Positions 1,401 to 16,085 of a stretch of 64,000 nt of DNA are shown here, piece by piece. The notes beneath the pieces were generated by a model, which was given only the letters and a program-made list of their open reading frames with translations, was not told the origin of the DNA and made no database searches. The stretch lies in NCBI GenBank assembly GCA_024875585.1, contig GCA_024875585.1_4107.1; one strand, written 5' to 3'. The stretch is from a phage. Position numbers and translations under genes: made by a program. How positions within the stretch are numbered: position 1 is the stretch's first letter; each line of letters starts with the position of its first letter.

Positions 1401-2045
1401 GTGATGACTAAGCAAGAAATATTCAAAACATTAATTGACATTTTACGTTCATCTAAAACTCGTTGTGCAATGGAGTTTGATATTCCTTACGCTGAACGAG
1501 TCATCTTTCCACAAGTAAAAGAGGCAGGGCTTACTTTACTTGGTATGGGGATGTACTCTGTAGTAGTTGAACATAAAAACTATCCAGGTCGTGCATTTAA
1601 AGTAACCACGTCACGATGGGATGGTTTTCGTGCTTATGCAAAGTACTGTATTGATAACACAGGAACTAAGTTTCTTCCTGTAATATACAGTGCAAATGAA
1701 CAAGGAAACTTTGGATGGTATGAAATGGATAAGTACTACCCTATCATTAAACAAAAAAATAATTATGATGACTTTGTTAGTACTAAAATTGGAGATTTGT
1801 ATTCGTATGCACATGCTGGTCAGCACGTAACTTCAGTGAATGAACTGCGTGGAAATTCAGAAGAGATTGCAATTGCAACTGTTGTAGCTAACATAATGAA
1901 AGAGTTTCATGGTCGTTTTGTACCAGACATTCATTCCAGTAATGTAATGATGGATAAAGATGGAAATTTATTCATCACTGACCCTATTTCGTGTGATGTA
2001 CGTCGAGAAATACCAATCACTGAAGAAGACCCAATTTTTTATTGA
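1401..2045 (+). CDS. atypical protein kinase-like protein (214 aa)
   Basis: Gly-rich loop LGMGMYSVV, Lys in RAFKV, catalytic-loop-like DIHSSN, ITD (DFG-like); SD AAGGATGA. Confidence 0.45.
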   Translation: MMTKQEIFKTLIDILRSSKTRCAMEFDIPYAERVIFPQVKEAGLTLLGMGMYSVVVEHKNYPGRAFKVTTSRWDGFRAYAKYCIDNTGTKFLPVIYSANEQGNFGWYEMDKYYPIIKQKNNYDDFVSTKIGDLYSYAHAGQHVTSVNELRGNSEEIAIATVVANIMKEFHGRFVPDIHSSNVMMDKDGNLFITDPISCDVRREIPITEEDPIFY

Positions 2046-2108
2046 CAGAACTTGTGTTCTGGTGTATATTAAGTGAATTATAAACAAATTGTGACACAGG
2101 ATTAAATC

Positions 2109-2391: not shown

Positions 2392-2730
2392 ATGGAACAA
2401 TATTTTGAATTAGTTAATAAAGTGTCATTCTATGTAGTGTCATTGGTTTGGGTTTATTTCATGTTTTGCTACATTATTGCATTCTTCCGATATACTACTT
2501 TATATGAACGTATCTATTATGATGCACCAATATCATTCTTGGTGTTCTGTGCATGTACCTGGGGAATATTAGAAGTACTGATATGTGGATATAGTACTGA
2601 TGAATTAAATCTGGTATCGGTATTGACTGGGTTATCACTTGGTGTTATGATATCTTTCTTTCCAGTATGGTTGTTCTTTGAACTGATCCATCGCATTGAT
2701 GTATGGCGTTCTAATATCCCTGAAAAATAA
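2392..2730 (+). CDS. small multi-pass membrane protein, family M paralogue
   Basis: hydrophobic helices; C-terminal RSNIPEK tail shared with family M; SD GAAGG. Confidence 0.6.
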   Translation: MEQYFELVNKVSFYVVSLVWVYFMFCYIIAFFRYTTLYERIYYDAPISFLVFCACTWGILEVLICGYSTDELNLVSVLTGLSLGVMISFFPVWLFFELIHRIDVWRSNIPEK

Positions 2731-2739
2731 GGATTGATA

Positions 2740-3081
2740 ATGATTTATTACACTAACGTGTTTGCCTATGCTGTTGCTTGCATTTACATTGTTTACTTCT
2801 TATTTGGTGGAGTGCTTTGCTTCTTTAAGTACAAAACACTGTTTAATAGGATGTATCCAAATCATCCTATTGTAGTTGTACTTTTGATTCTTTCTCTTTC
2901 CCAAATAATCGTTGAAACTACATTGGGTATCAGTAGTGTACATTATAGTTTTGGCACTATAGTAATTATTACTATGCTTATTGCATACATTTTAGTACTT
3001 GGATATGGTATATTTGGTAATGTTGGAATGAAAATGTATCATCGAATTAAAACCTTACGTGATAATCTACCGGAGCGTTAA
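2740..3081 (+). CDS. small membrane protein, family M paralogue
   Basis: first ATG after SD AAGGATTGA (track start 2734 is TTG); C-terminal RDNLPER. Confidence 0.6.
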   Translation: MIYYTNVFAYAVACIYIVYFLFGGVLCFFKYKTLFNRMYPNHPIVVVLLILSLSQIIVETTLGISSVHYSFGTIVIITMLIAYILVLGYGIFGNVGMKMYHRIKTLRDNLPER

Positions 3082-3082
3082 G

Positions 3083-3427
3083 ATGTATAATTTAAACCTA
3101 ATCTCATATATTATAACAACCCTGTTTACATTTTATGTCTATGTTGGTATAATCCTACTGTACTTTAAATTTTATAAAGTGTTTAACCGTTTCTATCCTT
3201 CAATGGAGAATGAGTTCTTCTTTGTGTTGTACGTCTGCTACACGCTAATGGCTACTTGTTTCACTGTAGTTGATGGTATCATTGGTATTAAAGCAGATGG
3301 ACCAAATGGTAGTACGCTGGTTGCATTTATTCTTACCGGATTCTTGGCAACTTATATTACCTTCATTTCAACATGGTCAGTGGTTGAATTTCTCTTACGA
3401 CTACGAAAGAATATGCCGAATCGATAG
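3083..3427 (+). CDS. small membrane protein, family M paralogue
   Basis: ATG after SD GGAG, just past upstream stop (track start 3059 is GTG); C-terminal RKNMPNR. Confidence 0.6.
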   Translation: MYNLNLISYIITTLFTFYVYVGIILLYFKFYKVFNRFYPSMENEFFFVLYVCYTLMATCFTVVDGIIGIKADGPNGSTLVAFILTGFLATYITFISTWSVVEFLLRLRKNMPNR

Positions 3428-3436
3428 GAGACATAT

Positions 3437-3694
3437 ATGTTTGCATTGCGTAACAAAAACACTAAAGAATTATTATGTATTGATACAGTATGGGATTGTG
3501 CGGGTTCAACTACTGTTCTTGAAGAAGGTACTGGATATTGCGTGTTTGTTGTTCATGATAGGAATGAACTCGAATCATTGCTTGCTGAGTTTAATGCTGG
3601 TGGTAATCCTAACAGTACTAAATTCCCTGTGATTGTTAATCCAGCACCACCTGGTTCTTATGAAATTCTAACACTATGTGAGATGGATAAGTAA
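3437..3694 (+). CDS. hypothetical protein (85 aa)
   Basis: SD GGAGAC before ATG; TAATG junction with next gene. Confidence 0.55.
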   Translation: MFALRNKNTKELLCIDTVWDCAGSTTVLEEGTGYCVFVVHDRNELESLLAEFNAGGNPNSTKFPVIVNPAPPGSYEILTLCEMDK

Positions 3695-4074
3695 TGCGTC
3701 AAATGTACAAAGTGACCGAGCTAAACAAGCGTCTAGTTAAACAATCAATGTTCGAGGATAAAGAGTCTTATTATAACTTTAAACGTGCTGTAGAGGCTGC
3801 TATCCACATTCAGAAGCTTAAAGAACGTGGTTGTATTATTTTGGAAAATGGATCGGAAGTTGTATCGGATGACTTTAGTGTAGCGTTTGATGTTTCACCT
3901 GATGGGACGCTATCAATGCCCCGCTTAGGAACTGGAAACATGACTGTTTGGGTTGGCTTCACTATGGGTAATGTACCAGGCACAGTGTATGTAGATGATA
4001 TGGAGTTGAAAGAAAGCTTCAAAAACTTATCTTATCTTGAACCACAATACGCACATGAAATGAATTTATTTTGA
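3694..4074 (+). CDS. hypothetical protein (126 aa)
   Basis: ORF start overlaps upstream stop (TAATG). Confidence 0.55.
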   Translation: MRQMYKVTELNKRLVKQSMFEDKESYYNFKRAVEAAIHIQKLKERGCIILENGSEVVSDDFSVAFDVSPDGTLSMPRLGTGNMTVWVGFTMGNVPGTVYVDDMELKESFKNLSYLEPQYAHEMNLF

Positions 4075-4075
4075 G

Positions 4076-4103
4076 TTGACAAACACATTCAGTACTGTAT
4101 AAT
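4076..4103 (+). promoter_or_regulatory. sigma70-like promoter TTGACA-N16-TATAAT
   Basis: consensus -35/-10 hexamers; leader hairpin GGGATGA/TCATCCC at 4114..4132. Confidence 0.55.
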
Positions 4104-4150
4104 GCTTATCAAGGGGATGAACTTCTCATCCCTACAATCGAGGAACGACC

Positions 4151-4705
4151 ATGATTACTTTTAAGAAAACTGCTAACCACATCCATGAAATCTACATTAA
4201 CGGTCACAAAGCTGGCCTTCTTCGTTTACTCAGCCATCATCCTGATGTTATTGTATCTGATAATGAACCCAAAGATTGGCGTGTCTTTTTCTTTGGGAAG
4301 TACAGTGATTTTCAAGTATCAAATCTGAAGAACATTCGTTCAGTATGCACGTTAACTGAAATTAAAGAAAAGTTAGTAAAAGCATTGAAAACTAATCCAG
4401 ATGCAGTTCTTCCACCAGATAACTTTGTAGAGAAAGGTTATGCCTTAGCTCATTTCAAAGATGGCACTATTCAATCTATCAGCACTGCATATGAATATCA
4501 ATGGACTGAGTACTTCACTTATGGCTCCCGTGAAACTTTGATGGCTTCACGTAGTGAATTGGAAGAAGTAATAACTATTATAAATGAACGTGAACGTCAT
4601 TTATATGATAAACCTGAAATGTGGAGTTCAAATTACATTGACCGTATTGACTATGTTATTATGACTCCAATCTTTGACACTGCTTACTATGATTCTTTGA
4701 AATAA
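4151..4705 (+). CDS. hypothetical protein (184 aa)
   Basis: ORF downstream of promoter 4076..4103; SD GAGGAA. Confidence 0.65.
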   Translation: MITFKKTANHIHEIYINGHKAGLLRLLSHHPDVIVSDNEPKDWRVFFFGKYSDFQVSNLKNIRSVCTLTEIKEKLVKALKTNPDAVLPPDNFVEKGYALAHFKDGTIQSISTAYEYQWTEYFTYGSRETLMASRSELEEVITIINERERHLYDKPEMWSSNYIDRIDYVIMTPIFDTAYYDSLK

Positions 4706-4716
4706 GGATAACTTAT

Positions 4717-4893
4717 ATGAAACTACGTACTCGTAATCGTTTGATGGATGCACTGTACCACGAACAATGTACAATGAATGATGTAAAGCGTCAGTTAATG
4801 TATACATATCAGTTACCAGCCCGTGCTGCGAAACAACGTTCCAAAGAATTACTGAAAGAAGCTATCGAGTACTGGGAATCTGATTCGTACTAA
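4717..4893 (+). CDS. small hypothetical protein (58 aa)
   Basis: ORF below track cutoff; SD AAGGATA 7 nt upstream. Confidence 0.4.
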   Translation: MKLRTRNRLMDALYHEQCTMNDVKRQLMYTYQLPARAAKQRSKELLKEAIEYWESDSY

Positions 4894-4932: not shown

Positions 4933-5193
4933 ATGAAAATTTTATTAGTTCTAATACTACTAATACTACTAATTGTTTTACCATTTACTTTAGTATCTCC
5001 TGAACTTGCATGGAATGTGTTTGTGTACTTAGTATGTACTATTGCGGTAAATGGTATCTTGTTCTTAGTTCTATTCATAAATGGAATAGGACACGGGGGT
5101 GGGTGGACCAGTACTGCTGATATTGTACATAAAACCACTATGTCTTTATTTGTAGTGTGGAATTTATTCTGGACTTGGTTTGTGTTCTTCTAA
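4933..5193 (+). CDS. small hydrophobic membrane protein (86 aa)
   Basis: two long hydrophobic segments; SD GAGACT. Confidence 0.55.
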   Translation: MKILLVLILLILLIVLPFTLVSPELAWNVFVYLVCTIAVNGILFLVLFINGIGHGGGWTSTADIVHKTTMSLFVVWNLFWTWFVFF

Positions 5194-5854: not shown

Positions 5855-5880
5855 GGGTTGACTTTAGTCAGCCCTTTTTT
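5855..5880 (+). terminator. rho-independent terminator (GGGTTGAC-UUUA-GTCAGCCC + T6)
   Basis: 8 bp stem, T-tract; contains TTGACT. Confidence 0.65.
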
Positions 5881-5887
5881 CTATAAT
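5858..5887 (+). promoter_or_regulatory. candidate promoter TTGACT-N18-TATAAT embedded in terminator
   Basis: -35 inside hairpin, perfect TATAAT at 5882..5887. Confidence 0.45.
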
Positions 5888-6489: not shown

Positions 6490-6900
6490 ATGATTAACAA
6501 ACATTTCGCAGTTTCTAAAACAGTAACCATCGATAACGAATGGGAAATTACTATTCTTAATGATCCTGCTCGTGGGTTGCTTGCAGAGAATCTTGTACAG
6601 AAATACATCGACTGTAAGTCTGAATTGATTATTCACGACCGTACCAAATTTCTTCTCATCAATGGCAAGAAGTGTAAAGTATTAGTATTCACGGATAAAA
6701 TGAGCCGTGCAGACATTATCACCAAATTGGTAAGTTCTTCACGTCACCGCCCAGGAGTTAACAAATCTATCGAAGAAGTTAAAGATATGAAGCCTGGTGA
6801 TTTATTCATTATTGCGGGTTTTGATTCTAAAACAAGAGAAATGTACATTTCAGAAATGTACACTAATGCTGAAATGCGTAACAAATTCTTCTCTAACTAA
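6490..6900 (+). CDS. hypothetical protein (136 aa)
   Basis: SD AGGAGA before ATG. Confidence 0.65.
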   Translation: MINKHFAVSKTVTIDNEWEITILNDPARGLLAENLVQKYIDCKSELIIHDRTKFLLINGKKCKVLVFTDKMSRADIITKLVSSSRHRPGVNKSIEEVKDMKPGDLFIIAGFDSKTREMYISEMYTNAEMRNKFFSN

Positions 6901-6931
6901 TCAACCTAATTATGTATTATACAAATCTATA

Positions 6932-8149
6932 ATGGATAAAAATATGATCTTCGAAACAGAAAAAACTTTACTTGAAACTTATACTTTAGAAAATCTTGTA
7001 CAACTTAATCTGGCCCGTCCTGATATTCAACGAAACTGGCAATGGAAAAGTAATAATCAAAATAATCTTATAATTTCTATTCTAAAGAATTCACCAATTG
7101 GACAATTTTTGGTATGGAATGAAACTTCTTCAAATACAATGTACATTACTGATGGACGCCATCGTTATACTGTAATTTCAAACTTCATTAATAATAAGTT
7201 CCCAGTAACAGTTAAAACCGAAAGTGGAACCAAAGATTATTATTATGGTTCTGACGATCCAATCGAAGAAGAAAACATTTCACTAAAACTTGGTGGTAAA
7301 AGTAAGACTTGGAATTTCTTATCAAAAGAAGAGCGTAATGCTTTTCGCAATAAAGAAGTATCAGTAACATTTGTTCATACAGATGATGCTGAGAAGATTT
7401 CTGAAATGTTTATGGCTATCAACACTGCTTCATCTAATTTGTGTAAAGTAGACTTGCTGGTATGCAAGCACCACAAAAATGCATACATGAAACGTATTGA
7501 TAAACTATTTTCAATTGAGATTGAAAAAGATGACCAAATGGCAGTTCTAGTTAGCGATTTCTATCGTGCAATCGGACACTGTAATGTCAACGGTAATTAC
7601 GAGAAACATTTAGCTAAACTTAAAGCTAACCCAAAAGTTCAGAAGCGTGAATTTTTTGAGATGTATTTTATGGTACGAGCCTTCACCAAATTGTGTCGTG
7701 ATGCTTTAAACGATACATTGAATTCATATCGTATGCCTAAGATGAATAAACAAATTGAAGATGCTATTATTAGTACTGAATCACTGAGTGAACAGCAAGC
7801 TAACGCCGATTTTGTTCAGTTCGTGAATGCAGTTCGTGAGATGAACCTTGTATCTCCAATAAAAGATTTACAAAAGTTTCAATTCATCCACGAAGATATG
7901 AAGAATACCTTTAACAAGCGTCTTTTTTGTATCTTAATGGGATTATATTATGCTTACGGTACACGTTTACCATTGCATTTTCGTGATGTTTGGTGTGCCA
8001 TTTATAATGAAATGTCAGAAAAAAGTACTGAACTACCAACAAACGGGACTGATAGTTCTTCTGCTATTGTAGCTGGTATCCAATTGATTGAACCGTACTT
8101 TAGTTCAGCCTTTAATAATATTTCATTGAGTGCTCGCGTGGGAAAGTGA
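6932..8149 (+). CDS. DUF262 / ParB-like nuclease-domain protein (GmrSD N-terminal-like)
   Basis: motifs RPDIQRNWQW, SPIGQFLVW, ITDGRHRY (DGQQR-type); start uncertain (first ATG after upstream stop; track start 6797 overlaps previous gene). Confidence 0.6.
   Translation: MDKNMIFETEKTLLETYTLENLVQLNLARPDIQRNWQWKSNNQNNLIISILKNSPIGQFLVWNETSSNTMYITDGRHRYTVISNFINNKFPVTVKTESGTKDYYYGSDDPIEEENISLKLGGKSKTWNFLSKEERNAFRNKEVSVTFVHTDDAEKISEMFMAINTASSNLCKVDLLVCKHHKNAYMKRIDKLFSIEIEKDDQMAVLVSDFYRAIGHCNVNGNYEKHLAKLKANPKVQKREFFEMYFMVRAFTKLCRDALNDTLNSYRMPKMNKQIEDAIISTESLSEQQANADFVQFVNAVREMNLVSPIKDLQKFQFIHEDMKNTFNKRLFCILMGLYYAYGTRLPLHFRDVWCAIYNEMSEKSTELPTNGTDSSSAIVAGIQLIEPYFSSAFNNISLSARVGK
8140..8146 (+). other. 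candidate -1 ribosomal frameshift heptamer G_GGA_AAG
   Basis: X_XXY_YYZ pattern one codon before DUF262 stop; -1 slip enters HNH frame. Confidence 0.3.
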
Positions 8150-8358
8150 AAAATCGTGGAATACTAAATATTTCACAAAAACAATATATTTTGAAAAAAT
8201 ATCCCGTTTGTTATCTTTGTAAACAATTTATATTAGATACAGATAAACCACACTTTGATCATGTACAGTCATTGAAAAATGGTGGTAGTAATGACCTAGA
8301 AAATATTAGACCAACGCACCCCATTTGTAATTTACGCAAAGGTGCTAAAAGTATGTAG
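8146..8358 (+). CDS. HNH endonuclease motif ORF (70 aa, no ATG start)
   Basis: CYLC...HFDHV...GGSNDLEN...HPICN; GTG at 8146 overlaps upstream TGA. Confidence 0.5.
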   Translation: MKNRGILNISQKQYILKKYPVCYLCKQFILDTDKPHFDHVQSLKNGGSNDLENIRPTHPICNLRKGAKSM

Positions 8359-8407
8359 AATAAAGACTCCCATTGACTGGGAGTCTTGTTATATTAAAAG
8401 GATTTAT

Positions 8408-9244
8408 ATGAGTATTAAAAATAAATTAGATCAGTATTATACAAAACCAGAGTATGCTGTAGATTGTTATACTAAATCATTAGAATTAATTTCTGAACGT
8501 ATGGATATTAGTTCATCGTATTTTATGGAACCATGTGTCGGTACTGGTTCATTTTATCTACAATTTCCTGAAGAACGTCGTTTTGGTTGTGATATCGAAC
8601 CAGTACATCTTGATGAAAATGTTATACATTCTGATTTTTTGCTTGAGTTCGGGATTAATGCAAGAAGTAAAGGTGAGCCAATAATTGTTATAAGTAATCC
8701 ACCATTTGGTAAGATTTCTTCTTTGGCTATCAAATTCTTTAATAAATGTGCATCTATGCCTGAAGTGAAATATATTTGTTTTATTGTACCTAAGACATTC
8801 CGTAAAGTTGCAACACAGAATAAACTAAACGAGATGTTCCATCTTGTTCTTGATGAAGATTCACCACATGATGCTTTTATTCTGCATGGCGAACCGCATC
8901 ATGTACCATGTGTATTTCAGATATGGGAGCGTAGAGATGAAGTTCGTGAACAACACGAAATTAAAAATAAATCAAACTACTTCCAGTTTTGTACTAAGGA
9001 TGAAGCGGATATTTACATTAAGCGTGTAGGAACTAAAGCTGGTGAGTATGCTGCACCTGGTAAAGAACACAAAGATGCAAGTATGTACTACATTAAAACT
9101 GATTATGTTGATGAAATTATTAGAATTTTGCAAAGTGAAGACTACATTGACGAGATTAAACGTATACGCAAAACCACCGCTGGTGTATTCTGTGTATCTA
9201 AATCTGAACTTGTACTGAACATTGAAAAACGTTTGAATTTTTAA
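8408..9244 (+). CDS. N6-adenine DNA methyltransferase (gamma-type motif order)
   Basis: DQYYTKPEYA (motif X), EPCVGTGSF (motif I), ISNPPFG (motif IV); SD AAAGGATT; track start 8342 is GTG. Confidence 0.65.
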   Translation: MSIKNKLDQYYTKPEYAVDCYTKSLELISERMDISSSYFMEPCVGTGSFYLQFPEERRFGCDIEPVHLDENVIHSDFLLEFGINARSKGEPIIVISNPPFGKISSLAIKFFNKCASMPEVKYICFIVPKTFRKVATQNKLNEMFHLVLDEDSPHDAFILHGEPHHVPCVFQIWERRDEVREQHEIKNKSNYFQFCTKDEADIYIKRVGTKAGEYAAPGKEHKDASMYYIKTDYVDEIIRILQSEDYIDEIKRIRKTTAGVFCVSKSELVLNIEKRLNF

Positions 9245-9250
9245 AATACA

Positions 9251-9275
9251 GGGTTGACTTAGGTCAGCCCTTTTT
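9251..9275 (+). terminator. rho-independent terminator (GGGTTGAC-UUAG-GTCAGCCC + T5)
   Basis: hairpin + T-tract after MTase stop. Confidence 0.65.
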
Positions 9276-9283
9276 GCTAAAAT
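9254..9283 (+). promoter_or_regulatory. candidate promoter TTGACT-N18-TAAAAT embedded in terminator
   Basis: same cassette architecture as 5858..5887. Confidence 0.4.
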
Positions 9284-9865: not shown

Positions 9866-10060
9866 ATGTTATTAGTATATTCAAAGCGTTTCTGGATTTC
9901 TTTTATTGTACTATCGCTAATCGGCTTCGGTGTGAGTATACTCTTTTCGTGGGATGAATTGGGCACATGGTATTATGAAGTCCCGTGGTACATGAAGATA
10001 GCTCCTTGTTACGCGGCATTGTTCGTATCATTCCTTATTGTTGTCTTCAGCGAGGATTAG
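9866..10060 (+). CDS. small membrane protein (64 aa)
   Basis: two hydrophobic segments; SD AAGGAA. Confidence 0.5.
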   Translation: MLLVYSKRFWISFIVLSLIGFGVSILFSWDELGTWYYEVPWYMKIAPCYAALFVSFLIVVFSED

Positions 10061-10534: not shown

Positions 10535-10559
10535 GGGTTGACTTTAGTCAGCCCTTTTT
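10535..10559 (+). terminator. rho-independent terminator (GGGTTGAC-UUUA-GTCAGCCC + T5)
   Basis: hairpin + T-tract. Confidence 0.65.
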
Positions 10560-10567
10560 GCTATAAT
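10538..10567 (+). promoter_or_regulatory. candidate promoter TTGACT-N18-TATAAT embedded in terminator
   Basis: perfect TATAAT at 10562..10567. Confidence 0.45.
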
Positions 10568-10595: not shown

Positions 10596-11369
10596 ATGAA
10601 CCGTACAGAGAAAGCACTCCAAATTGAAAAGAACTTCAACTCCATGATGGCAGCACTGGAATGTCTTCTTGATACACAAACTAACTCGATCAACTCGCTG
10701 ATCGTTTCTGGTAAAGGTGGTGTTGGTAAAACTTACAATGTTGACCAACGGTTACAGAAAGCTGATGACAACTTTGAAATCGACTACAAGAAAATCAGTG
10801 GTAAAGTAACTACTGTAGGTCTGTACGAAGCACTGTATCGTTCACGTCATGCTGCTTCAGTACTGTTACTTGACGACGTTGATATCTTCTCTGATGAAAC
10901 GAATATTGATTTGCTTAAAGCTGTATTGGATACTTCTGAGAAGCGTGTAGTGTCTTATGCTACATCTGCGAAGTACCTGGAACAGCAGGGTATCCCTAAA
11001 CAGTTTGAATTCCGTGGTAAAGTAATCTTTCTGACTAACAAAAATCTGTCACAGATTGCTAAAGGTAAAAGCAGTTTAGCACCACACATTGATGCACTGA
11101 TTACTCGTAGTATCTTTGTTGACCTGCAACTGTTCACCAACGAAGAAGTTATGATTCACATTGAGAATATCATGAACAAAACTAACATCCTTGAGAACAA
11201 TGGTGTTAACAAAAATGGTTGTAAAGCAATTTTGAACTGGATGTTGAGTAATGAAGATCGTCTGCGTTCACCTTCACTGCGTATGCCAGTACTGATCGCT
11301 GGACTGTATAATAAATTCCCATATGATTGGGAGTCAATGGCAGAGAATATGTTCCTTGAGAAAAATTGA
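10596..11369 (+). CDS. P-loop NTPase, AAA+-like (257 aa)
   Basis: Walker A GKGGVGKT, Walker B LLLDDVD about 50 aa later, sensor-1-like FLTNKN. Confidence 0.55.
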   Translation: MNRTEKALQIEKNFNSMMAALECLLDTQTNSINSLIVSGKGGVGKTYNVDQRLQKADDNFEIDYKKISGKVTTVGLYEALYRSRHAASVLLLDDVDIFSDETNIDLLKAVLDTSEKRVVSYATSAKYLEQQGIPKQFEFRGKVIFLTNKNLSQIAKGKSSLAPHIDALITRSIFVDLQLFTNEEVMIHIENIMNKTNILENNGVNKNGCKAILNWMLSNEDRLRSPSLRMPVLIAGLYNKFPYDWESMAENMFLEKN

Positions 11370-11425: not shown

Positions 11426-11767
11426 ATGTGTGAGTTTTTTGAATCTAATATAATGCTTGGTATTACATTGATATACATGTATGTATTCTTGTTTTATCAT
11501 TCAATTGTAATTAGTCTTTGGTATTTTAAAAGGAAAATGGTTTTTAAATTATATTCATATGATAATGTATTCTTAGTTATATATAGTATCATACAAGGTG
11601 GGTTTGTTCTATTTGGTATTATGACGTATGTGATTTATAGATTACAAATTGATAACACACCATACATTACACAATATGTTGTGTTTTCAGGACTAATCGT
11701 ATGGTTATTGGTGTGTATAATTTATTTTATAATTAAAGCTCGTGATAAAATTAAAGGGGATTTCTAA
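11426..11767 (+). CDS. small membrane protein, family M paralogue
   Basis: LWYFKRKMVFKLY core; C-terminal ARDKIKGDF. Confidence 0.6.
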   Translation: MCEFFESNIMLGITLIYMYVFLFYHSIVISLWYFKRKMVFKLYSYDNVFLVIYSIIQGGFVLFGIMTYVIYRLQIDNTPYITQYVVFSGLIVWLLVCIIYFIIKARDKIKGDF

Positions 11768-12105
11768 TGTTAGAATTTTTTAAATCAGATGTGATGCTTA
11801 GTATTACATTGATTTATATGTTTGGTTTTTTATTTTATCATCTACTAGTTGTAGTTCTATGGTATTTTAAAAAGAAAATAGTTTTCAAACTGTATCCACC
11901 TAGTAACATTTTATTGTTTCTTTACACACTTATTCAAGGTATGTTTGTTATTATTGGTGTTATCACACACTTAATCTATTGTTATAATCCACATTTAAAA
12001 TCAATAACACAATATATTGTTTTCTTTGGGTTGTTCATTTGGTTAATTATATACTTAATTGAACTCATTATTCATAGTAGAGAAAAAATTCGTGGAGACT
12101 TCTAA
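11767..12105 (+). CDS. small membrane protein, family M paralogue
   Basis: near-duplicate of 11426 gene; TAATG coupling; C-terminal REKIRGDF. Confidence 0.65.
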   Translation: MLEFFKSDVMLSITLIYMFGFLFYHLLVVVLWYFKKKIVFKLYPPSNILLFLYTLIQGMFVIIGVITHLIYCYNPHLKSITQYIVFFGLFIWLIIYLIELIIHSREKIRGDF

Positions 12106-12452
12106 TGTTTGAAGCTTATCTTGATTTTTTAAGAAATAGTCCAGTTGCACATTCACTTGCAGGAATTATACTAACAACTTATATCACATTTTGGGGAGTT
12201 ATGTTTCTAGGATGGTATTTTAAACGACAATTCTATAAACGTAATGGCGAACATTTTATGAATTCTGTCATTAATCAATCGTTGTTTGCATCAACATTTA
12301 TAGCATCTATTTTAGCCATACTCACAGGAAAGGTTCTGCCAGCGTATTCAGTAACTTACGGAACACTTTGGATGATATGTTTAACTTTTATATTGACCAT
12401 TAAAATTTGTTGTGTTATGATTGAACTTCGAAATAAGATACCGGAGGAATGA
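12105..12452 (+). CDS. small membrane protein, family M paralogue
   Basis: TAATG coupling; C-terminal RNKIPEE. Confidence 0.6.
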   Translation: MFEAYLDFLRNSPVAHSLAGIILTTYITFWGVMFLGWYFKRQFYKRNGEHFMNSVINQSLFASTFIASILAILTGKVLPAYSVTYGTLWMICLTFILTIKICCVMIELRNKIPEE

Positions 12453-12787
12453 TGGAGTATTTTATTGATTTACTGCCGTGGTATATGAAAGTGAGTATTT
12501 TATACTATATTATTAGTACTGGATTCTACTTCCTGATGTGGTTTTTTAAACGACCAATTTCAGTGTACATTGCTAATAACATGCTGCAATTAAAATTACA
12601 CGCATGGTTTTTTATGGCGATGTTTATGCCTATTATTCACTACTCAATGATTAGTATAGGTTTACGTTCTAATGGTGAACCAATTGTATTAGTATTCTAT
12701 TGGGGTTCAACTATAGTATATTTCGGTTTGCTATTGTTCCCCATCATTCATAAATTACGTGCTAAAGTTCCTGATGCGAGGTATTAA
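12449..12787 (+). CDS. small membrane protein, family M paralogue
   Basis: ATGA coupling; C-terminal LRAKVPDARY. Confidence 0.6.
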   Translation: MMEYFIDLLPWYMKVSILYYIISTGFYFLMWFFKRPISVYIANNMLQLKLHAWFFMAMFMPIIHYSMISIGLRSNGEPIVLVFYWGSTIVYFGLLLFPIIHKLRAKVPDARY

Positions 12788-13101
12788 TGGATATCGTAAC
12801 ATTGATCTACACGTTGTATTCATTCTATTTCATTATGTGTTGGGTTGGATTTTTATTTGTACTCAAGATGTTTGATTATGTTGAAAAACAGATAAAAGAT
12901 TTTTGTATTCCTTTTATCGGTTCAACCATTATTAGTGTTTCTTGTGTTTATTTTTTAGTGTTTGATCCACCAGATAACACTGCGATGATTGACTTCATGT
13001 TACTACCAACCACTGTAATTTTTTTATGTAGTCTGATGCCACCTATTAGTCGTGGATTAACTGAATTTAGACGCAAACAAAAGCGTAAAAGAGGGATGTA
13101 A
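12787..13101 (+). CDS. small membrane protein, family M paralogue
   Basis: TAATG coupling; basic C-terminal tail. Confidence 0.55.
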   Translation: MDIVTLIYTLYSFYFIMCWVGFLFVLKMFDYVEKQIKDFCIPFIGSTIISVSCVYFLVFDPPDNTAMIDFMLLPTTVIFLCSLMPPISRGLTEFRRKQKRKRGM

Positions 13102-13469
13102 TGGAAATTGCTCTTATTATCTTAACTGCTATGCTGTTTATTAGTACATTGGTTATAATTGGCAAATTCTTTTGTGTATCATTTTTAGAAACGGTATACG
13201 ATGAAATTGCTGATGATTATGAATTACACGCCGGATTTTTCATTACGTATTGGCTTAGTTTATTTTGTCTAGTCATTGTTTGGATTTTACATATCTTTAA
13301 ATGGGGTATGGTGGACGGTGATCCTATCATGGCAATTATTGTTCTAGTGTTTGGTATCCTAGGTGGTGCAGTACATAATATGATGGTTATTTGGCAAACT
13401 GTTCAATGTGTATTGGTTCCTTATTTCGAAAAAATGCACAGTACAATTAAAAAACGTAAACGAGGTTAG
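13101..13469 (+). CDS. small membrane protein, family M paralogue
   Basis: TAATG coupling; basic C-terminal tail KKRKRG. Confidence 0.55.
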   Translation: MEIALIILTAMLFISTLVIIGKFFCVSFLETVYDEIADDYELHAGFFITYWLSLFCLVIVWILHIFKWGMVDGDPIMAIIVLVFGILGGAVHNMMVIWQTVQCVLVPYFEKMHSTIKKRKRG

Positions 13470-13470
13470 T

Positions 13471-13833
13471 ATGAACGGGATTGAATTATCTTTCATTGGT
13501 CAAATACTAGTAATGGTGAATACTTTCTTTTTCTCACTTATTGCATTAATGTGCATTGGAAAGTATTTTCATAAACAACCATTCTCAAATTTATATGATG
13601 TAATAAAAAAGAAATATAGTCCTGCACATAGTGTACTTATTTGCAGTTTCAATTTTGGTTTTGTTGTATTAATAATTGGATTGTTAACATCAACGTCAAA
13701 TGTAATGATCTTCGGTCTTATGATCTGTTCATTGGTATTAGCAGTAATTGTATGTTGTTTAGTACTGCACCTTGTAGTACTATTATATATAAAGCTCGTT
13801 GAAATCCATCAACGTTTAGGTATGAGGAAATAA
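13471..13833 (+). CDS. small membrane protein, family M-like
   Basis: ATG after SD GAGGT (track start 13408 is internal to previous gene); hydrophobic. Confidence 0.5.
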   Translation: MNGIELSFIGQILVMVNTFFFSLIALMCIGKYFHKQPFSNLYDVIKKKYSPAHSVLICSFNFGFVVLIIGLLTSTSNVMIFGLMICSLVLAVIVCCLVLHLVVLLYIKLVEIHQRLGMRK

Positions 13834-13834
13834 T

Positions 13835-14206
13835 ATGAGTTACCGTGAGATATTTTCCATTATTTCAATTATTATGTTCAGTGCTGGGACATTGGTGTGG
13901 GTATTATATTTTTTCTGTGTATCACCAGTGTATAATATGTTATGTAATATTAAATCAAGTTCTGGATATATGACTTTTATGATCTTTATGGGATATTATT
14001 GTCTAAGCATTTTAGGTGTTGTTTTGGTTGTTATATTTGATGTAGGGCCAAATAAGGATGGTCTGAAAATGTATGAGTTAATAACTATGTTTGGGTGTAT
14101 GATACCAACTGCACTAATGTTTGTAGCTATTGGTGCTGGATGTATAAAGTTATACAATTATTTAAAATCCATTCATCATTCCATTCATAATAAACGTATG
14201 TCATAA
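13835..14206 (+). CDS. small membrane protein, family M-like
   Basis: SD GAGGAAA; hydrophobic; basic C-terminus. Confidence 0.5.
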   Translation: MSYREIFSIISIIMFSAGTLVWVLYFFCVSPVYNMLCNIKSSSGYMTFMIFMGYYCLSILGVVLVVIFDVGPNKDGLKMYELITMFGCMIPTALMFVAIGAGCIKLYNYLKSIHHSIHNKRMS

Positions 14207-14247
14207 TAAAAATCCAGTACTGAATAGTACTGGACTAATAAGGAGTT

Positions 14248-14898
14248 ATGATGAAATCAAAATTAGGTTTGTTTTATGGAAACTACTTCATTAAACAGCG
14301 TAAATTCATAAAAAAATACTTCTCCACAGAGAAATCTAGTCCTATAATTTTTAAAAGACCAAAATATAATTTTTACTTAGCAGGTGCTAAACAGTCTAAG
14401 AAATTCATTACATTTTTAAATAAAAACAAAATTAAAGCTTCTTATGTTGAAACTAGAAAGAACTCATCGATAATTCCTGGTGATTTCATTGAATACGGAT
14501 GTTTCAATATTAAGTACAATGATAGCACATACTGTATGGATATTGATTGCAATACATCAAATCTTTTTAACATTGTAATAAATCCATCGAAACAATATAA
14601 TGTTTATGGTGATTCAATTATCAAATTAATAAAAAACAAAGATTGGTTTGATTTTGAAATAAATGTTTTAGATGAAAATTATGATGAAGTTCCAGTTAAC
14701 CCTGAAATATGTGATATATTAAACAGTTTAAAAGGTAGTAGCTACAATATACCATCTGATTTAATGTTTCAGTACTCTTTAATACATAAAGATATTGAAC
14801 ATTATATTGTGTGTGCTAAAATCTTGAATTATCTGTATGATGAATTTAAAATGAGTTCTAAAATAACAGCATATACTCTTTATAATATTTCTATATAA
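14248..14898 (+). CDS. hypothetical protein (216 aa)
   Basis: SD AAGGAG; basic N-terminus. Confidence 0.6.
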   Translation: MMKSKLGLFYGNYFIKQRKFIKKYFSTEKSSPIIFKRPKYNFYLAGAKQSKKFITFLNKNKIKASYVETRKNSSIIPGDFIEYGCFNIKYNDSTYCMDIDCNTSNLFNIVINPSKQYNVYGDSIIKLIKNKDWFDFEINVLDENYDEVPVNPEICDILNSLKGSSYNIPSDLMFQYSLIHKDIEHYIVCAKILNYLYDEFKMSSKITAYTLYNISI

Positions 14899-14911
14899 TT
14901 TAAAATATTAA

Positions 14912-14938
14912 AGCCAGTACGAGAGCACTGGCTTTAAT
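14912..14938. terminator. bidirectional terminator hairpin between convergent genes
   Basis: AAAGCCAGT-ACGAGAGC-ACTGGCTTT flanked by A/T runs. Confidence 0.5.
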
Positions 14939-14939
14939 A

Positions 14940-16085
14940 TTATTTTTTCCAAGGAAGTAACGAAGTTGGAATCTTGATAGGTATATTTGATGCAACAACA
15001 TCAGGAAAATTTGCATCTCCACAAACATACAAATTATCGATTTCGTCTATCAATAATGTATAGTTGTAACTTCTACAAAAACCACTTAAGACTCTTCCCT
15101 CTAATGCAGATAAATTCATTTCAGTGAATTGAGTGATATATGTTTCATTTGAACCAACACCACATTGACCATTAGCATTTATACCACAAGTAAGCAATTT
15201 ATTATTGTTTTGAATTACACATGATGGTCCAGCAAGGTTCGTACCTAGTTCACCTACAACATTAACTTCACCTTTTAATGATAAATTTGGGATCACTGTA
15301 CTCATTGGGACTCGAGATGTATTTCCGACACCTGCTTGCCCTGAGCCATTAGTGGATGCTACTTTAACAGTACCGTCATTAAGAAAAATATAAGATGTTT
15401 CGATTGTATTAACTGCTTGAGTAGCTGATGTTATTGACGTATCCTGTTTGAATTTAAGTACATTTGTCGTTGTTGAACCAGAGATAAATGTAGCACCTGC
15501 GTACCAATATGTTCCATCCTGGAGTACTAAACCAGTACTTCTAATTGAACACCCAGCACTTCGAACATTTTCTATATGACTATATGTAAAGGTTGATACG
15601 ATTGAAGATTCACCATTACCGAACACCCCACCAGTACCTGCACCACAGAAAAACCATTTACCGTTTTTCAAAAATACACGCATACAAGCAGAAATAACCA
15701 CACTATCAATATCACTTGCAGTTACACCAAAATCGGTAAAGAAATGAGTTATATCAATCCAATTACCACCAGTATTTGATGGGAGATGTGGAATTACAAC
15801 TCTAGTCCCTGTGTACCAGATTGTATCATCATCTTTAATAACAAGCGTACCTTGAACACCACCCCAATACCTGGTTACATTAGTATTAACAAGTGTCCAC
15901 TCATTAGATGATTCCGTTGAGCCATTACCACCTTGACCATATGATGATGAACCGCACCAGTATAAATTGCCATTTTTATTTAAATAAAATTTTGCATCAG
16001 CCGAACATTGTAATCTGTATTTGAATACAGTTTTTGGTGCTGGTGCAATATTTGCATACTTAATCATTCTTCCAAAAGGTAACAT
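14940..16085 (-). CDS. RCC1-like 7-bladed beta-propeller protein, paralogue 1 (381 aa)
   Basis: N-terminus MLPFGRMIKYAN; repeats YGQGGNG, FGNGES, GQAGVGN, GQCGVGS. Confidence 0.7.
   Translation of the reverse strand: MLPFGRMIKYANIAPAPKTVFKYRLQCSADAKFYLNKNGNLYWCGSSSYGQGGNGSTESSNEWTLVNTNVTRYWGGVQGTLVIKDDDTIWYTGTRVVIPHLPSNTGGNWIDITHFFTDFGVTASDIDSVVISACMRVFLKNGKWFFCGAGTGGVFGNGESSIVSTFTYSHIENVRSAGCSIRSTGLVLQDGTYWYAGATFISGSTTTNVLKFKQDTSITSATQAVNTIETSYIFLNDGTVKVASTNGSGQAGVGNTSRVPMSTVIPNLSLKGEVNVVGELGTNLAGPSCVIQNNNKLLTCGINANGQCGVGSNETYITQFTEMNLSALEGRVLSGFCRSYNYTLLIDEIDNLYVCGDANFPDVVASNIPIKIPTSLLPWKK

What the first reader, a model, noticed from the sequence alone, without database searches (positions are those of the whole stretch)
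11426..14206. Eleven paralogous small multi-pass membrane proteins in two clusters (family M)
Eight coupled genes at 11426..14206 and three at 2392..3427 encode 104-141 aa proteins with two or three hydrophobic helices, a conserved WYFK(R/K)..(V/I)FKLY-like stretch after the first helix and a charged C-terminal tail (e.g. REKIRGDF, RNKIPEE, RSNIPEK, KKRKRG). Repeated small inner-membrane proteins in a phage early region are candidates for superinfection exclusion, lysis timing or channel-like functions. The two clusters about 8 kb apart imply duplication and transposition of the unit.
Basis: partly seen in the sequence, partly recalled or inferred. Interest (0 to 1): 0.55.

Follow-up and report, generated by a model that had tools for sequence, protein, structure and literature searches.

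The report
Jumbo-phage array of small membrane proteins
Eleven related genes in this giant E. coli phage encode small three-helix inner-membrane proteins, a fast-diverging family found only in RaK2/121Q-like jumbo phages and never characterised; they look like early accessory factors acting at the host membrane, but their function is untested.

Summary
The window comes from an Asteriusvirus jumbo coliphage (121Q/PBECO4 group).

What is there:
- Three ORFs at 2392-3427 (A1-A3) and eight at 11426-14206 (B1-B8) are real genes. dN/dS against 121Q is 0.06-0.37.
- They encode 104-123 aa proteins with three TM helices, N-out/C-in.

Homology:
- All eleven belong to one superfamily with two subfamilies. 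Subfamily I is A1-3 and B1-4 (LWFFK and LRxKIPER motifs). Subfamily II is B5-8 (GKFFCV and H..I..KR.G motifs).
- Profile-profile probability is 96.5% (E 9e-10). Each subfamily HMM picks members of the other out of 375 window ORFs; the subfamily I HMM recovers all four of subfamily II.

Distribution and evolution:
- The family has no Pfam, NCBIfam, PADLOC or PDB relative. Only 44 representative clusters match among 1.84 billion proteins.
- Members lie downstream of a conserved AAA+ ATPase gene, adjacent or within about 2.6 kb, in every RaK2-like lineage fetched.
- Arrays are hypervariable: 28-53% identity where flanking genes are 75-95%. Copy number varies, and a viable Salmonella phage has lost B1 and B3.
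- Strong sigma-70-like promoters precede both operons.

Interpretation: most likely an early, diversified set of accessory inner-membrane factors (exclusion of competing phages or counter-defence). A holin role, a conserved channel and an obligate complex are each disfavoured. Function is untested.

The parts
2042..2070 (+). sigma-70-like promoter (TTGACA-17-TATATT, 11/12) upstream of the operon g93-A1-A2-A3-g85-g126
   Evidence: lies in an intergenic gap; consensus match only, not shown to be active
2392..2730 (+). A1, 112 aa, 3-TM N-out/C-in, subfamily I (AFFRY...; C-term WRSNIPEK)
   Evidence: HMM_I 86.8 bits; phrog_19285; dN/dS 0.14 vs 121Q
2740..3081 (+). A2, 113 aa (115 aa if TTG 2734 is used), subfamily I (CFFKYK; LRDNLPER)
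   Evidence: 66.4 bits; phrog_19285; dN/dS 0.06
3083..3427 (+). A3, 114 aa (ATG 3083 with GGAG upstream; not GTG 3059), subfamily I (LYFKFY; LRKNMPNR)
   Evidence: 84.9 bits; dN/dS 0.17
10535..10567 (+). composite terminator-hairpin/promoter element GGGTTGACTTTAGTCAGCCCTTTTTGCTATAAT. The -35 box lies in the stem and the -10 box after the T-run. It sits directly upstream of the AAA+ gene and the B array.
   Evidence: 4 copies in the window, 0 expected by chance
10596..11369 (+). 257-aa AAA+ ATPase (Walker A GKGGVGKT, Walker B LLLDDVD). It is the conserved upstream neighbour of the array in all RaK2-like phages fetched. It is probably DNA-related rather than membrane-related.
   Evidence: AF2 pLDDT 92.7; Foldseek matches RuvB, DnaA domain III, Hda, RFC and ORC. 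Distant homologues sit in replication modules without arrays.
11426..11767 (+). B1, 113 aa, subfamily I (LWYFKRK; ARDKIKGDF). Recent duplicate of B2 (54% identity).
   Evidence: phrog_19454; absent from phAPEC6/PBECO4-type arrays
11767..12105 (+). B2, 112 aa, subfamily I (LWYFKKK; SREKIRGDF)
   Evidence: phrog_19454; dN/dS 0.37
12105..12452 (+). B3, 115 aa, subfamily I (GWYFKRQ; LRNKIPEE)
   Evidence: 94.4 bits; phrog_19046; AF2 model; deleted except for 27 residues in Salmonella phage SD-1_S14
12449..12787 (+). B4, 112 aa, subfamily I (MWFFKRP; LRAKVPDARY). The most conserved orthogroup (53-66% within the genus).
   Evidence: phrog_27396
12787..13101 (+). B5, 104 aa, subfamily II (GFLFVLK; FRRKQKRKRGM). 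The weakest link to the rest. Split into two annotated CDSs (gp228/gp229) in 121Q and duplicated in Turkey5/JNE01.
   Evidence: z 2.3; HMM_I 20.8 bits; phrog_33258
13101..13469 (+). B6, 122 aa, subfamily II (GKFFCVSF; HSTIKKRKRG)
   Evidence: (z 7.9); phrog_26405
13471..13833 (+). B7, 120 aa from ATG 13471 (not the 141-aa GTG 13408 ORF), subfamily II (GKYFHKQ; IHQRLGMRK)
   Evidence: orthologues start at the equivalent ATG
13835..14206 (+). B8, 123 aa, subfamily II (LYFFCVSP; IHHSIHNKRMS). About 40% identical orthologue in Klebsiella RaK2-type phages.
   Evidence: phrog_27618
14211..14236 (.). hairpin just after the B8 stop codon. There is no T-run on the + strand, so it is probably not a + strand terminator.
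14904..14941 (+). terminator-like hairpin plus T-run after the 216-aa gene (14248-14898). Likely end of the AAA+/B1-B8 transcription unit, at the convergence with the - strand RCC1-like array.

Best explanation
SHOWN.
- The eleven genes are members of one lineage-restricted superfamily of about 110-aa inner-membrane proteins with three TM helices. The N-tail and loop 2 are periplasmic; loop 1 and the basic C-tail are cytoplasmic.
- The family expanded by ancient tandem duplication into orthogroups kept in a fixed order: (B1/B2)-B3-B4-B5-B6-B7-B8, with subfamily I before subfamily II. A separate A1-A3 triplet lies about 8 kb upstream.
- Sequence conservation is concentrated on the cytoplasmic face: the end of TM1 (Y......LWFFK or G..FC) and the C-tail (LRxKIPER or H..I..KR.G). 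TM2, the periplasmic loop and TM3 are free to vary.
- The arrays behave as hypervariable cassettes in an otherwise conserved genome. They gain and lose copies. They recombine independently of the adjacent AAA+ gene. Each allele is nevertheless under purifying selection.

INFERRED.
- Both operons are transcribed early by host sigma-70 RNA polymerase and translated by coupling, so the proteins fill the host inner membrane soon after infection.
- There they most likely act as a diversified set of accessory factors that condition the infected cell's cytoplasmic membrane. Individual paralogues would use their variable TM/periplasmic surfaces against different targets, such as DNA entry by superinfecting phages or membrane-acting host defence effectors.
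- The conserved cytoplasmic motifs would serve a common step such as insertion, stability or a shared partner.
- They are probably not virion, lysis-cassette or essential replication components.
For: - Real genes: dN/dS 0.06-0.37 against 121Q for all eleven.
- Topology.
- One superfamily.
- Restricted distribution: only 44 representative clusters among 1.84e9 proteins, all 56-124 aa (42 of them 101-124 aa). Word-indexed searches found only Asteriusvirus-like sequences plus a Klebsiella phage B8 orthologue.
- Arrays in every RaK2-like lineage fetched, with conserved order.
- Cytoplasmic-face conservation.
- Hypervariability: window against Turkey5 gives A1-3 at 28-41% and B1-8 at 31-53%. Flanking genes are 75-95%, including another membrane protein at 93% and the AAA+ at 95%.
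- Reciprocal mosaicism against 121Q: AAA+ 58%, B genes 77-95%.
- Copy-number change: B1/B2 duplication only in the 121Q/UE-S1/window lineage, B5 duplication in Turkey5/JNE01, B5 annotated as two CDSs in 121Q.
- Dispensability: Salmonella phage SD-1_S14 lacks B1, has almost all of B3 deleted, and has two thirds of the AAA+ gene deleted.
- Early-type promoters in the intergenic gaps.
- Absence from the phAPEC6 virion proteome (PMC7247149).
Against: - No experiment, transcriptome or homologue of known function supports any specific activity. The exclusion/counter-defence role rests on evolutionary pattern and analogy only.
- Conservation on the cytoplasmic rather than the periplasmic side is not what a simple periplasm-facing exclusion protein would show.
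- Pairwise dN/dS is below 1, so there is no direct signal of positive selection.
- Fast divergence could partly reflect weak constraint on TM residues, although the neighbouring 86-aa membrane protein is 93% conserved.
- Conserved gene order of ancient paralogues and translational coupling would also fit a multi-subunit complex.
- Promoter calls are consensus matches. The overall count is not enriched over shuffles (77 found against 80 expected).
- The SD-1_S14 deletions depend on the accuracy of that deposited assembly.
Confidence: 0.35

Rival explanations
1. The paralogues assemble into one hetero-oligomeric inner-membrane complex. Translational coupling would produce them in fixed proportions. 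The complex would work with the co-transcribed AAA+ ATPase, for example by tethering a DNA-handling AAA+ (replication or recombination) or the phage genome to the membrane through the conserved cytoplasmic LWFFK and C-tail motifs.
For: - The AAA+ gene precedes family members in all lineages examined.
- Ancient paralogues are retained in a fixed order.
- Stop and start codons overlap throughout.
- The conserved residues are all cytoplasmic.
- The AAA+ resembles RuvB, DnaA, Hda, RFC and ORC, and its distant homologues lie in replication modules.
Against: - All these phages are collinear relatives, so conserved adjacency is weak evidence of a functional link.
- AAA+ and array alleles assort independently.
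- Distant AAA+ homologues have no arrays.
- The A cluster has no AAA+ partner.
- Member number varies from 7 to 13 per array, and B1, B3 and most of the AAA+ are missing from a deposited viable phage.
- In several lineages 1.5-2.6 kb of other genes separates the AAA+ gene from the first detected downstream member.
Confidence: 0.2
2. They are holin/antiholin-like proteins of class I holin architecture that set or modulate lysis timing. They could, for example, depolarise the membrane to release the SAR-type endolysin reported for this phage group.
For: - Size 104-123 aa, three TMDs N-out/C-in and a basic, highly charged cytoplasmic C-tail match the textbook description of class I holins such as lambda S (my own knowledge).
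- No holin has been identified for RaK2-like phages, and their endolysin has an N-terminal TM domain (PMC5259590).
Against: - No match to any Pfam holin family at E up to 1.
- Not next to an endolysin or spanin: 121Q endolysin is gp532, the array is gp224-232.
- Early-type sigma-70 promoters.
- Eleven copies that diverge rapidly are not expected of a lysis clock.
- No dual-start motif is conserved.
Confidence: 0.1
3. They form ion-conducting pores (viroporin-like channels) or modulators of host transporters, which reset membrane potential or ion content early in infection.
For: - Small multi-pass helical proteins produced early.
- Scattered His, Gln, Glu or Asp residues within TM segments. A-type members carry an acidic residue near the periplasmic end of TM2.
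Against: - TM2 and TM3 show no conserved polar positions across the family; relative entropy is at most about 2 bits.
- No structural or sequence neighbour among known channels.
Confidence: 0.1

Closest known systems
Class I holins (e.g. lambda S105, P22 gp13)
   Same: Small size, three TM helices with N-out/C-in topology, and a short basic cytoplasmic C-terminal tail.
   Different: No sequence match to any holin family. Not in a lysis cassette. Preceded by early-type promoters. Present as 7-13 rapidly diverging paralogues. Conservation lies at the cytoplasmic membrane interface rather than in the TM helices.
Phage superinfection-exclusion or immunity inner-membrane proteins (T4 Imm, P22 SieA, HK97 gp15)
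   Same: Small phage-encoded inner-membrane proteins made early or constitutively. They are accessory and dispensable, fast evolving and lineage-specific. This comparison is by analogy from my own knowledge.
   Different: No sequence relationship; no Pfam family was hit at E up to 1 (I did not check that an Imm model is in this Pfam copy). Different TM number (as I recall, two in Imm and one in gp15). No multi-copy arrays are known for those proteins. No exclusion phenotype has been tested here.
PHROG families 19454, 19046, 27396, 33258, 26405, 27618, 19285 (all 'unknown function') and 16874 ('membrane protein')
   Same: Nine of the ten window proteins scanned are full-length members of the first seven families (E 1e-45 to 1e-67). 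B7 matched no PHROG family strongly, and A3 was not scanned.
   Different: PHROGs treats them as separate, unannotated families. Here they are joined into one superfamily with two subfamilies and a conserved genomic setting.
Tandem RCC1-like gene array of 121Q/phAPEC6 (Hua et al. 2017, PMC5646251; PMC7247149)
   Same: Another product of tandem gene duplication in the same genomes, starting 700 bp downstream on the opposite strand.
   Different: Those are about 380-aa soluble beta-propeller-like proteins, found in virions and already described. The membrane-protein array is not mentioned in those papers.

Membership tests
Class I holin | Small protein (under about 150 aa) with three TMDs, N-out/C-in | tested here: met
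   Kyte-Doolittle segments plus the positive-inside rule for all eleven. AF2 helices of B3. TMHMM notes on relatives in the Muenster record.
Class I holin | Hydrophilic, highly charged C-terminal cytoplasmic domain | tested here: met
   C-tails carry 2-8 K/R. They are partly constrained by the overlapping ribosome-binding site of the next gene.
Class I holin | Gene lies in a lysis cassette next to an endolysin or spanin | tested here: not met
   Neighbours are a kinase, denV, HNH, GmrSD-like, methyltransferase-like, AAA+ and RCC1-like genes. The predicted endolysin is 121Q gp532, while the array is gp224-232 (PMC5259590).
Class I holin | Sequence membership of a curated holin family | tested here: not met
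   No holin family in Pfam at E up to 1 for the ten members scanned (A3 was not scanned in Pfam), none in NCBIfam at E up to 0.1, and no PHROG with a lysis annotation.
Class I holin | Late expression and triggered, lethal hole formation | not testable with these tools
   Only promoter-like consensus sites are available. They are of the early sigma-70 type.
T4 Imm-type superinfection immunity protein | Sequence match to the Imm family | tested here: not met
   No such Pfam hit at E up to 1.
T4 Imm-type superinfection immunity protein | Blocks DNA entry of a superinfecting phage | not testable with these tools
   Needs efficiency-of-plating and DNA-injection assays.
Known anti-phage defence system components (PADLOC) | Match to a PADLOC model | tested here: not met
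   No hit for any of the nine members scanned at E up to 0.1.
Family M superfamily (defined here) | About 100-125 aa, three TMDs, an aromatic-Phe-basic motif with invariant F at the cytoplasmic end of TM1, a basic C-terminal motif after a conserved R or H, and reciprocal profile detection | tested here: met
   Alignments. HMM cross-detection. hhalign 96.5%. B5 is the weakest member (z 2.3). Detection by the subfamily II HMM is not reciprocal for B4 and A2, and is marginal for A1.
AAA+ ATPase (flanking gene 10596-11369) | Walker A and B motifs and an AAA+ fold | tested here: met
   G39/G42/G44/K45 and D93/D94 are invariant in 27 homologues. AF2 pLDDT 92.7. Foldseek probability 1.0 to RuvB, DnaA-III, RFC, Hda and ORC, with TM-scores of about 0.5. 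Pfam AAA_16 is below its cut-off.

The most novel reading that the evidence does not exclude
The 7-13 paralogous three-helix proteins are subunits of a modular inner-membrane platform specific to RaK2-like jumbo phages. The platform would use the conserved cytoplasmic LWFFK and C-tail motifs to dock the adjacent DNA-type AAA+ ATPase, and through it the incoming or replicating 350-kb genome, at the host membrane. This would be a membrane-anchored replication or organisation centre in jumbo phages not known to form a nucleus-like shell.
Probability: 0.08. Interest if true: 0.75.

Novelty: new variant of a known kind. Interest (0 to 1): 0.4.

Why it matters
RaK2/121Q-like jumbo phages devote about 4 kb, roughly 1% of the genome, to this one uncharacterised membrane-protein family in every lineage examined. 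The family is among the most variable parts of otherwise conserved genomes.

If these proteins exclude competing phages or neutralise membrane-acting defences, they would bear on host range and on the design of phage cocktails using these therapeutic-candidate phages. They would also add a new protein family to the short list of known inner-membrane exclusion factors.

This analysis merges eight PHROG families into one superfamily. It defines diagnostic motifs, including an invariant Phe and a near-invariant Arg that can be mutated. It also shows that single members are naturally dispensable, so the question can be tested directly.

Tried and rejected
- Plain BLASTP among the eleven: significant only for B1-B2, A1-A2 and A2-A3.
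- hhalign with thin 3-6 sequence orthogroup profiles: B5 stayed unlinked and several pairs were ambiguous. Enriched profiles resolved this.
- Pfam, NCBIfam and PADLOC scans: no meaningful hits.
- PDB sequence-profile search with the 52-sequence alignment: best E 0.047, unrelated membrane proteins.
- Foldseek of the B3 model against PDB and BFVD: best E about 2.
Bacterial or prophage homologues were therefore not surveyed.
- tblastn of distant metagenomic members against cultured phages: P0062 gave nothing, and P0053 matched only Erwinia phage Kaldavass.
- Cluster look-up of 10 distant representatives: nearly all are unnamed metagenomic singletons.
- Literature searches (Asteriusvirus, phAPEC6, RaK2, Alcyoneusvirus transcriptomes): no description of this array and no expression data.
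- Escherichia phage CMSTMSU (L005): a fragmented, UNVERIFIED record, not used.
- A first script hung on hhalign output options.
- Considered and rejected: that the ORFs are spurious hydrophobic frames of AT-rich DNA (rejected by dN/dS, orthologues and ribosome-binding sites); that the AAA+ gene is a membrane-specific partner (its distant homologues lie in replication modules).


Full report
**Source and gene models**

The region 11000-14600 matches 37 jumbo coliphage and Salmonella phage genomes of the genus Asteriusvirus (121Q, PBECO4, phAPEC6). The best match is UE-S1 at 94% identity.

Three start codons need correcting:
- B7 most plausibly begins at ATG 13471 (120 aa, GAGG upstream), not GTG 13408.
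- A3 begins at ATG 3083 (114 aa).
- A2 begins at TTG 2734 or ATG 2740.

The proteins are therefore 104-123 aa long. The junctions in the B cluster are TAATG or ATGA overlaps or 1-nt gaps, and every gene has a Shine-Dalgarno-like motif.

All eleven are under purifying selection against their 121Q orthologues (dN/dS 0.06-0.37), so they are real genes.

**Topology**

Every protein has three hydrophobic segments (19-residue Kyte-Doolittle means of 1.6-3.1). Lys+Arg counts are 0-2 in the N-tail and loop 2, 3-5 in loop 1 for nine of eleven, and 2-8 in the C-tail. This gives N-out/C-in.

Two independent lines agree:
- An AlphaFold2 model of B3, built on a 52-sequence alignment, has pLDDT 82.5 and long helices at 13-38, 55-80 and 84-111.
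- The GenBank record of Klebsiella phage Muenster labels five of its eight family members in this array 'TMHMM: 3 TMDs; N-out, C-in'.

**Are all eleven paralogues?**

BLASTP alone supports only B1-B2 (54% identity), A1-A2 and A2-A3. PHROGs places nine of the ten proteins scanned in seven separate families of unknown function, with only weak cross-hits.

I collected orthologues from Turkey5/JNE01, A4, Muenster/RaK2, a metagenomic contig and the protein databases. Two subfamilies emerge.

- Subfamily I (A1-3, B1-4) has an invariant Phe in [LI][LW][WYF]-F-K-[RKYF] at the cytoplasmic end of TM1. It also has a near-invariant Arg in a C-terminal L-R-x-[KN]-[ILM]-P-[END]-[RK].
- Subfamily II (B5-8) has G-[KF]-[FY]-F-x-[VI] at the same position and H-x-x-[IQ]-x-x-K-R-x-G at the C-terminus.

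Four tests join the two subfamilies:
1. An HMM of subfamily I contained no subfamily II sequence. Run on all 375 six-frame window ORFs of at least 50 aa, it ranks its own seven first (65-94 bits) and then exactly B6, B7, B5 and B8 (20.5-23.5 bits). Noise is at or below 8.8 bits.
2. The converse HMM recovers A3, B2, B1 and B3 clearly above its noise of 9.0 bits. A1 is marginal at 9.7 bits, and B4 and A2 are not recovered.
3. With shuffles that preserve TM segments, the 99th percentile is 15.9 bits against a real median of 17.8. Z-scores are 7.9 for B6, 5.7 for B8, 3.9 for B7 and 2.3 for B5.
4. hhalign of the enriched profiles (80 against 33 sequences) gives probability 96.5% and E 9e-10 over 106 columns end to end, aligning motif on motif. 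Reversed controls give 12%.

B5 is the weakest member. No other ORF in the window belongs to the family.

**Distribution and setting**

A full HMMER scan of 1.84 billion representative proteins found 44 clusters at E of 1e-3 or better. All are 56-124 aa, 42 of them 101-124 aa, and most matches are full length. The word-indexed searches found only Asteriusvirus-like sequences and a B8 orthologue in Klebsiella phages.

The array always lies downstream of a conserved 255-262 aa AAA+ ATPase gene, which is 51-87% identical across lineages. This holds in:
- Asteriusvirus;
- Alcyoneusvirus (Muenster, RaK2);
- a 358,663-bp IMG/VR contig, which I recall is the size of Cronobacter phage GAP32;
- four further 360-371 kb IMG/VR contigs;
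- Erwinia phage Kaldavass;
- metagenomic contigs, one of which carries 13 members.

Orthogroup order is conserved: (B1/B2)-B3-B4-B5-B6-B7-B8, with subfamily I before subfamily II. Detected A-type clusters of two or three subfamily I genes lie about 6.5-8 kb upstream of the AAA+ gene in several lineages. A1-A3 are each other's closest relatives. This points to one relocated founder followed by local triplication.

**Expression signals**

The best sigma-70 consensus matches (11-12 of 12 positions) nearly all fall in + strand intergenic gaps. They include 2042-2070 ahead of g93-A1-A3 and 10538-10567 ahead of the AAA+ gene and B1-B8.

The second of these is part of a 33-nt composite element. The -35 box lies in a terminator-like stem and the -10 box follows the T-run. 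The element occurs four times in the window against zero expected by chance.

A hairpin follows B8 but has no T-run on the + strand. A terminator-like site at 14904-14941 ends the unit.

None of the array proteins appears in the phAPEC6 virion proteome, which lists gp003-gp010 and then gp035c (PMC7247149).

**Evolutionary behaviour**

| Comparison | Flanking genes | AAA+ gene | Family M genes |
|---|---|---|---|
| Window vs Turkey5 | 75-95% (another membrane protein 93%) | 95% | A1-3 28-41%; B1-8 31-53% |
| Window vs 121Q | about 82-98% | 58% | B genes 77-95% |

The AAA+ gene and the array therefore recombine independently.

Copy number also changes:
- phAPEC6 and PBECO4 have a single B1/B2 gene.
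- Turkey5 and JNE01 have two B5 genes.
- 121Q has B5 annotated as two CDSs.
- Salmonella phage SD-1_S14 lacks B1, has all but 27 residues of B3 deleted, and retains only residues 1-94 of the AAA+ protein.

**Where the constraint lies**

Relative entropy peaks at the cytoplasmic end of TM1 and in the C-tail in both subfamilies. TM2, the periplasmic loop and TM3 are poorly conserved.

Part of the C-tail signal is a nucleotide-level constraint. The last seven codons are enriched for G-rich codons that form the next gene's ribosome-binding site:

| Codon | Last seven codons | Gene body | Fisher p |
|---|---|---|---|
| CCG (Pro) | 11/25 | 18/180 | 8e-5 |
| GAG (Glu) | 19/41 | 47/210 | 0.003 |
| GGG (Gly) | 8/24 | 53/428 | 0.009 |

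The conserved Arg or His lies further upstream, and terminal genes of arrays keep the motif. So the tail is not only a ribosome-binding-site artefact.

**The AAA+ neighbour**

Its AF2 model (pLDDT 92.7) matches RuvB, DnaA domain III, Hda, RFC and ORC with TM-scores of about 0.5.

Distant homologues (27-40% identity) in unrelated phage contigs sit among DnaB-type helicase, DNA polymerase, UvsX or primase genes. They have no small-gene arrays nearby. It is therefore probably a DNA-handling AAA+ and not a dedicated partner of the membrane proteins.

**Comparison with known systems**

There are no Pfam, NCBIfam or PADLOC matches. No PDB sequence relatives were found, and no structural neighbours.

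The architecture equals that of class I holins. However, the genes are not in a lysis cassette, have early-type promoters, and match no holin family. The group's predicted endolysin is gp532 in 121Q (PMC5259590).

The resemblance to superinfection-exclusion proteins such as T4 Imm is by analogy only.

The papers on 121Q, phAPEC6 and CBB discuss the RCC1-like tandem array but not this one.

**Verdict**

The family is real, restricted to RaK2-like jumbo phages and uncharacterised.

The best-supported reading is an early, diversified set of accessory inner-membrane factors, confidence about 0.35. Rivals are a multi-subunit complex with the AAA+ (0.2), holin-like (0.1) and channel-like (0.1) roles.

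The family is moderately interesting phage dark matter and can now be tested directly.

Noticed in passing
window 5855-5887, 9251-9283, 10535-10567, 38275-38307 (+ strand): A 33-nt composite element, GGGTTGACTTnnGTCAGCCCTTTTTGCTAnAAT. A terminator-like hairpin carries the -35 hexamer in its stem, and the T-run is followed by a -10 hexamer. There are four copies against 0 expected by chance, all in intergenic gaps ahead of + strand genes.
   Followed up: partly
window 6490-9244: A block found in the window but not at the corresponding place in 121Q, where gp216 is followed directly by denV gp217. It holds a 136-aa ORF, a 450-aa GmrSD_N/DUF262-type protein (6797-8149, Pfam E 1e-17), a 70-aa HNH endonuclease (8146-8358), and a ~280-300 aa protein with an NPPF motif suggesting an N6-adenine methyltransferase (8342-9244). 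It looks like an inserted nuclease/methylase island.
   Followed up: partly
window 10596-11369 compared with L001 (121Q), L006 (Turkey5), L009: The AAA+ gene exists as deeply diverged alleles within one genus. The window copy is 95% identical to Turkey5 and 87% to a metagenomic contig, but only 58% to 121Q/A4. Neighbouring genes show the opposite pattern, so there are sharp recombination breakpoints on either side.
   Followed up: partly
window 14940 to about 24000 (- strand): A tandem array of RCC1-like (WD40_RLD) genes starts right after the B operon. This is the known >30-gene array of 121Q/phAPEC6, whose products are found in virions.
   Followed up: partly
L002 (Escherichia phage vB_EcoM_CRJP21, OQ708376) 2596-4798: In this GenBank record the AAA+ gene and four family M membrane genes are labelled 'regulator of chromosome condensation' or 'DNA condensation protein'. 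The product names appear to have been shifted from the neighbouring RCC1-like array.
   Followed up: no
L004 (phage A4) 7136-7687 and L007 (Muenster) 6779-7366: In A4 and in Alcyoneusvirus the array is followed by a 183-195 aa predicted outer-membrane lipoprotein (lipobox ...TGC/...SAC, Gly/Ser-rich C-terminal half). In Muenster a ClpP-like protease gene follows that. The window has an unrelated 216-aa gene at this position.
   Followed up: no
window 4933-5193 and 9866-10060: Two further small hydrophobic proteins (86 aa and 64 aa) lie in the same early region. They are not family M members (HMM scores at noise level). The 86-aa protein is highly conserved (93% to Turkey5), in contrast to family M.
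   Followed up: partly
L024 (Salmonella phage SD-1_S14, 310.6 kb): This Salmonella-infecting Asteriusvirus genome is about 40 kb smaller. At this locus it carries deletions that remove two thirds of the AAA+ gene, B1 and most of B3. This could be natural genome reduction or an assembly artefact.
   Followed up: partly
window 1401-2045: A 214-aa gene annotated 'protein kinase' in 121Q (94% identical) lies one gene upstream of the A cluster. A 237-aa gene on the related metagenomic contig L008 carries Pfam Phage_T7_kinase. Homology between the two was not tested, and the window protein itself gives no Pfam hit at E of 0.01 or better.
   Followed up: no
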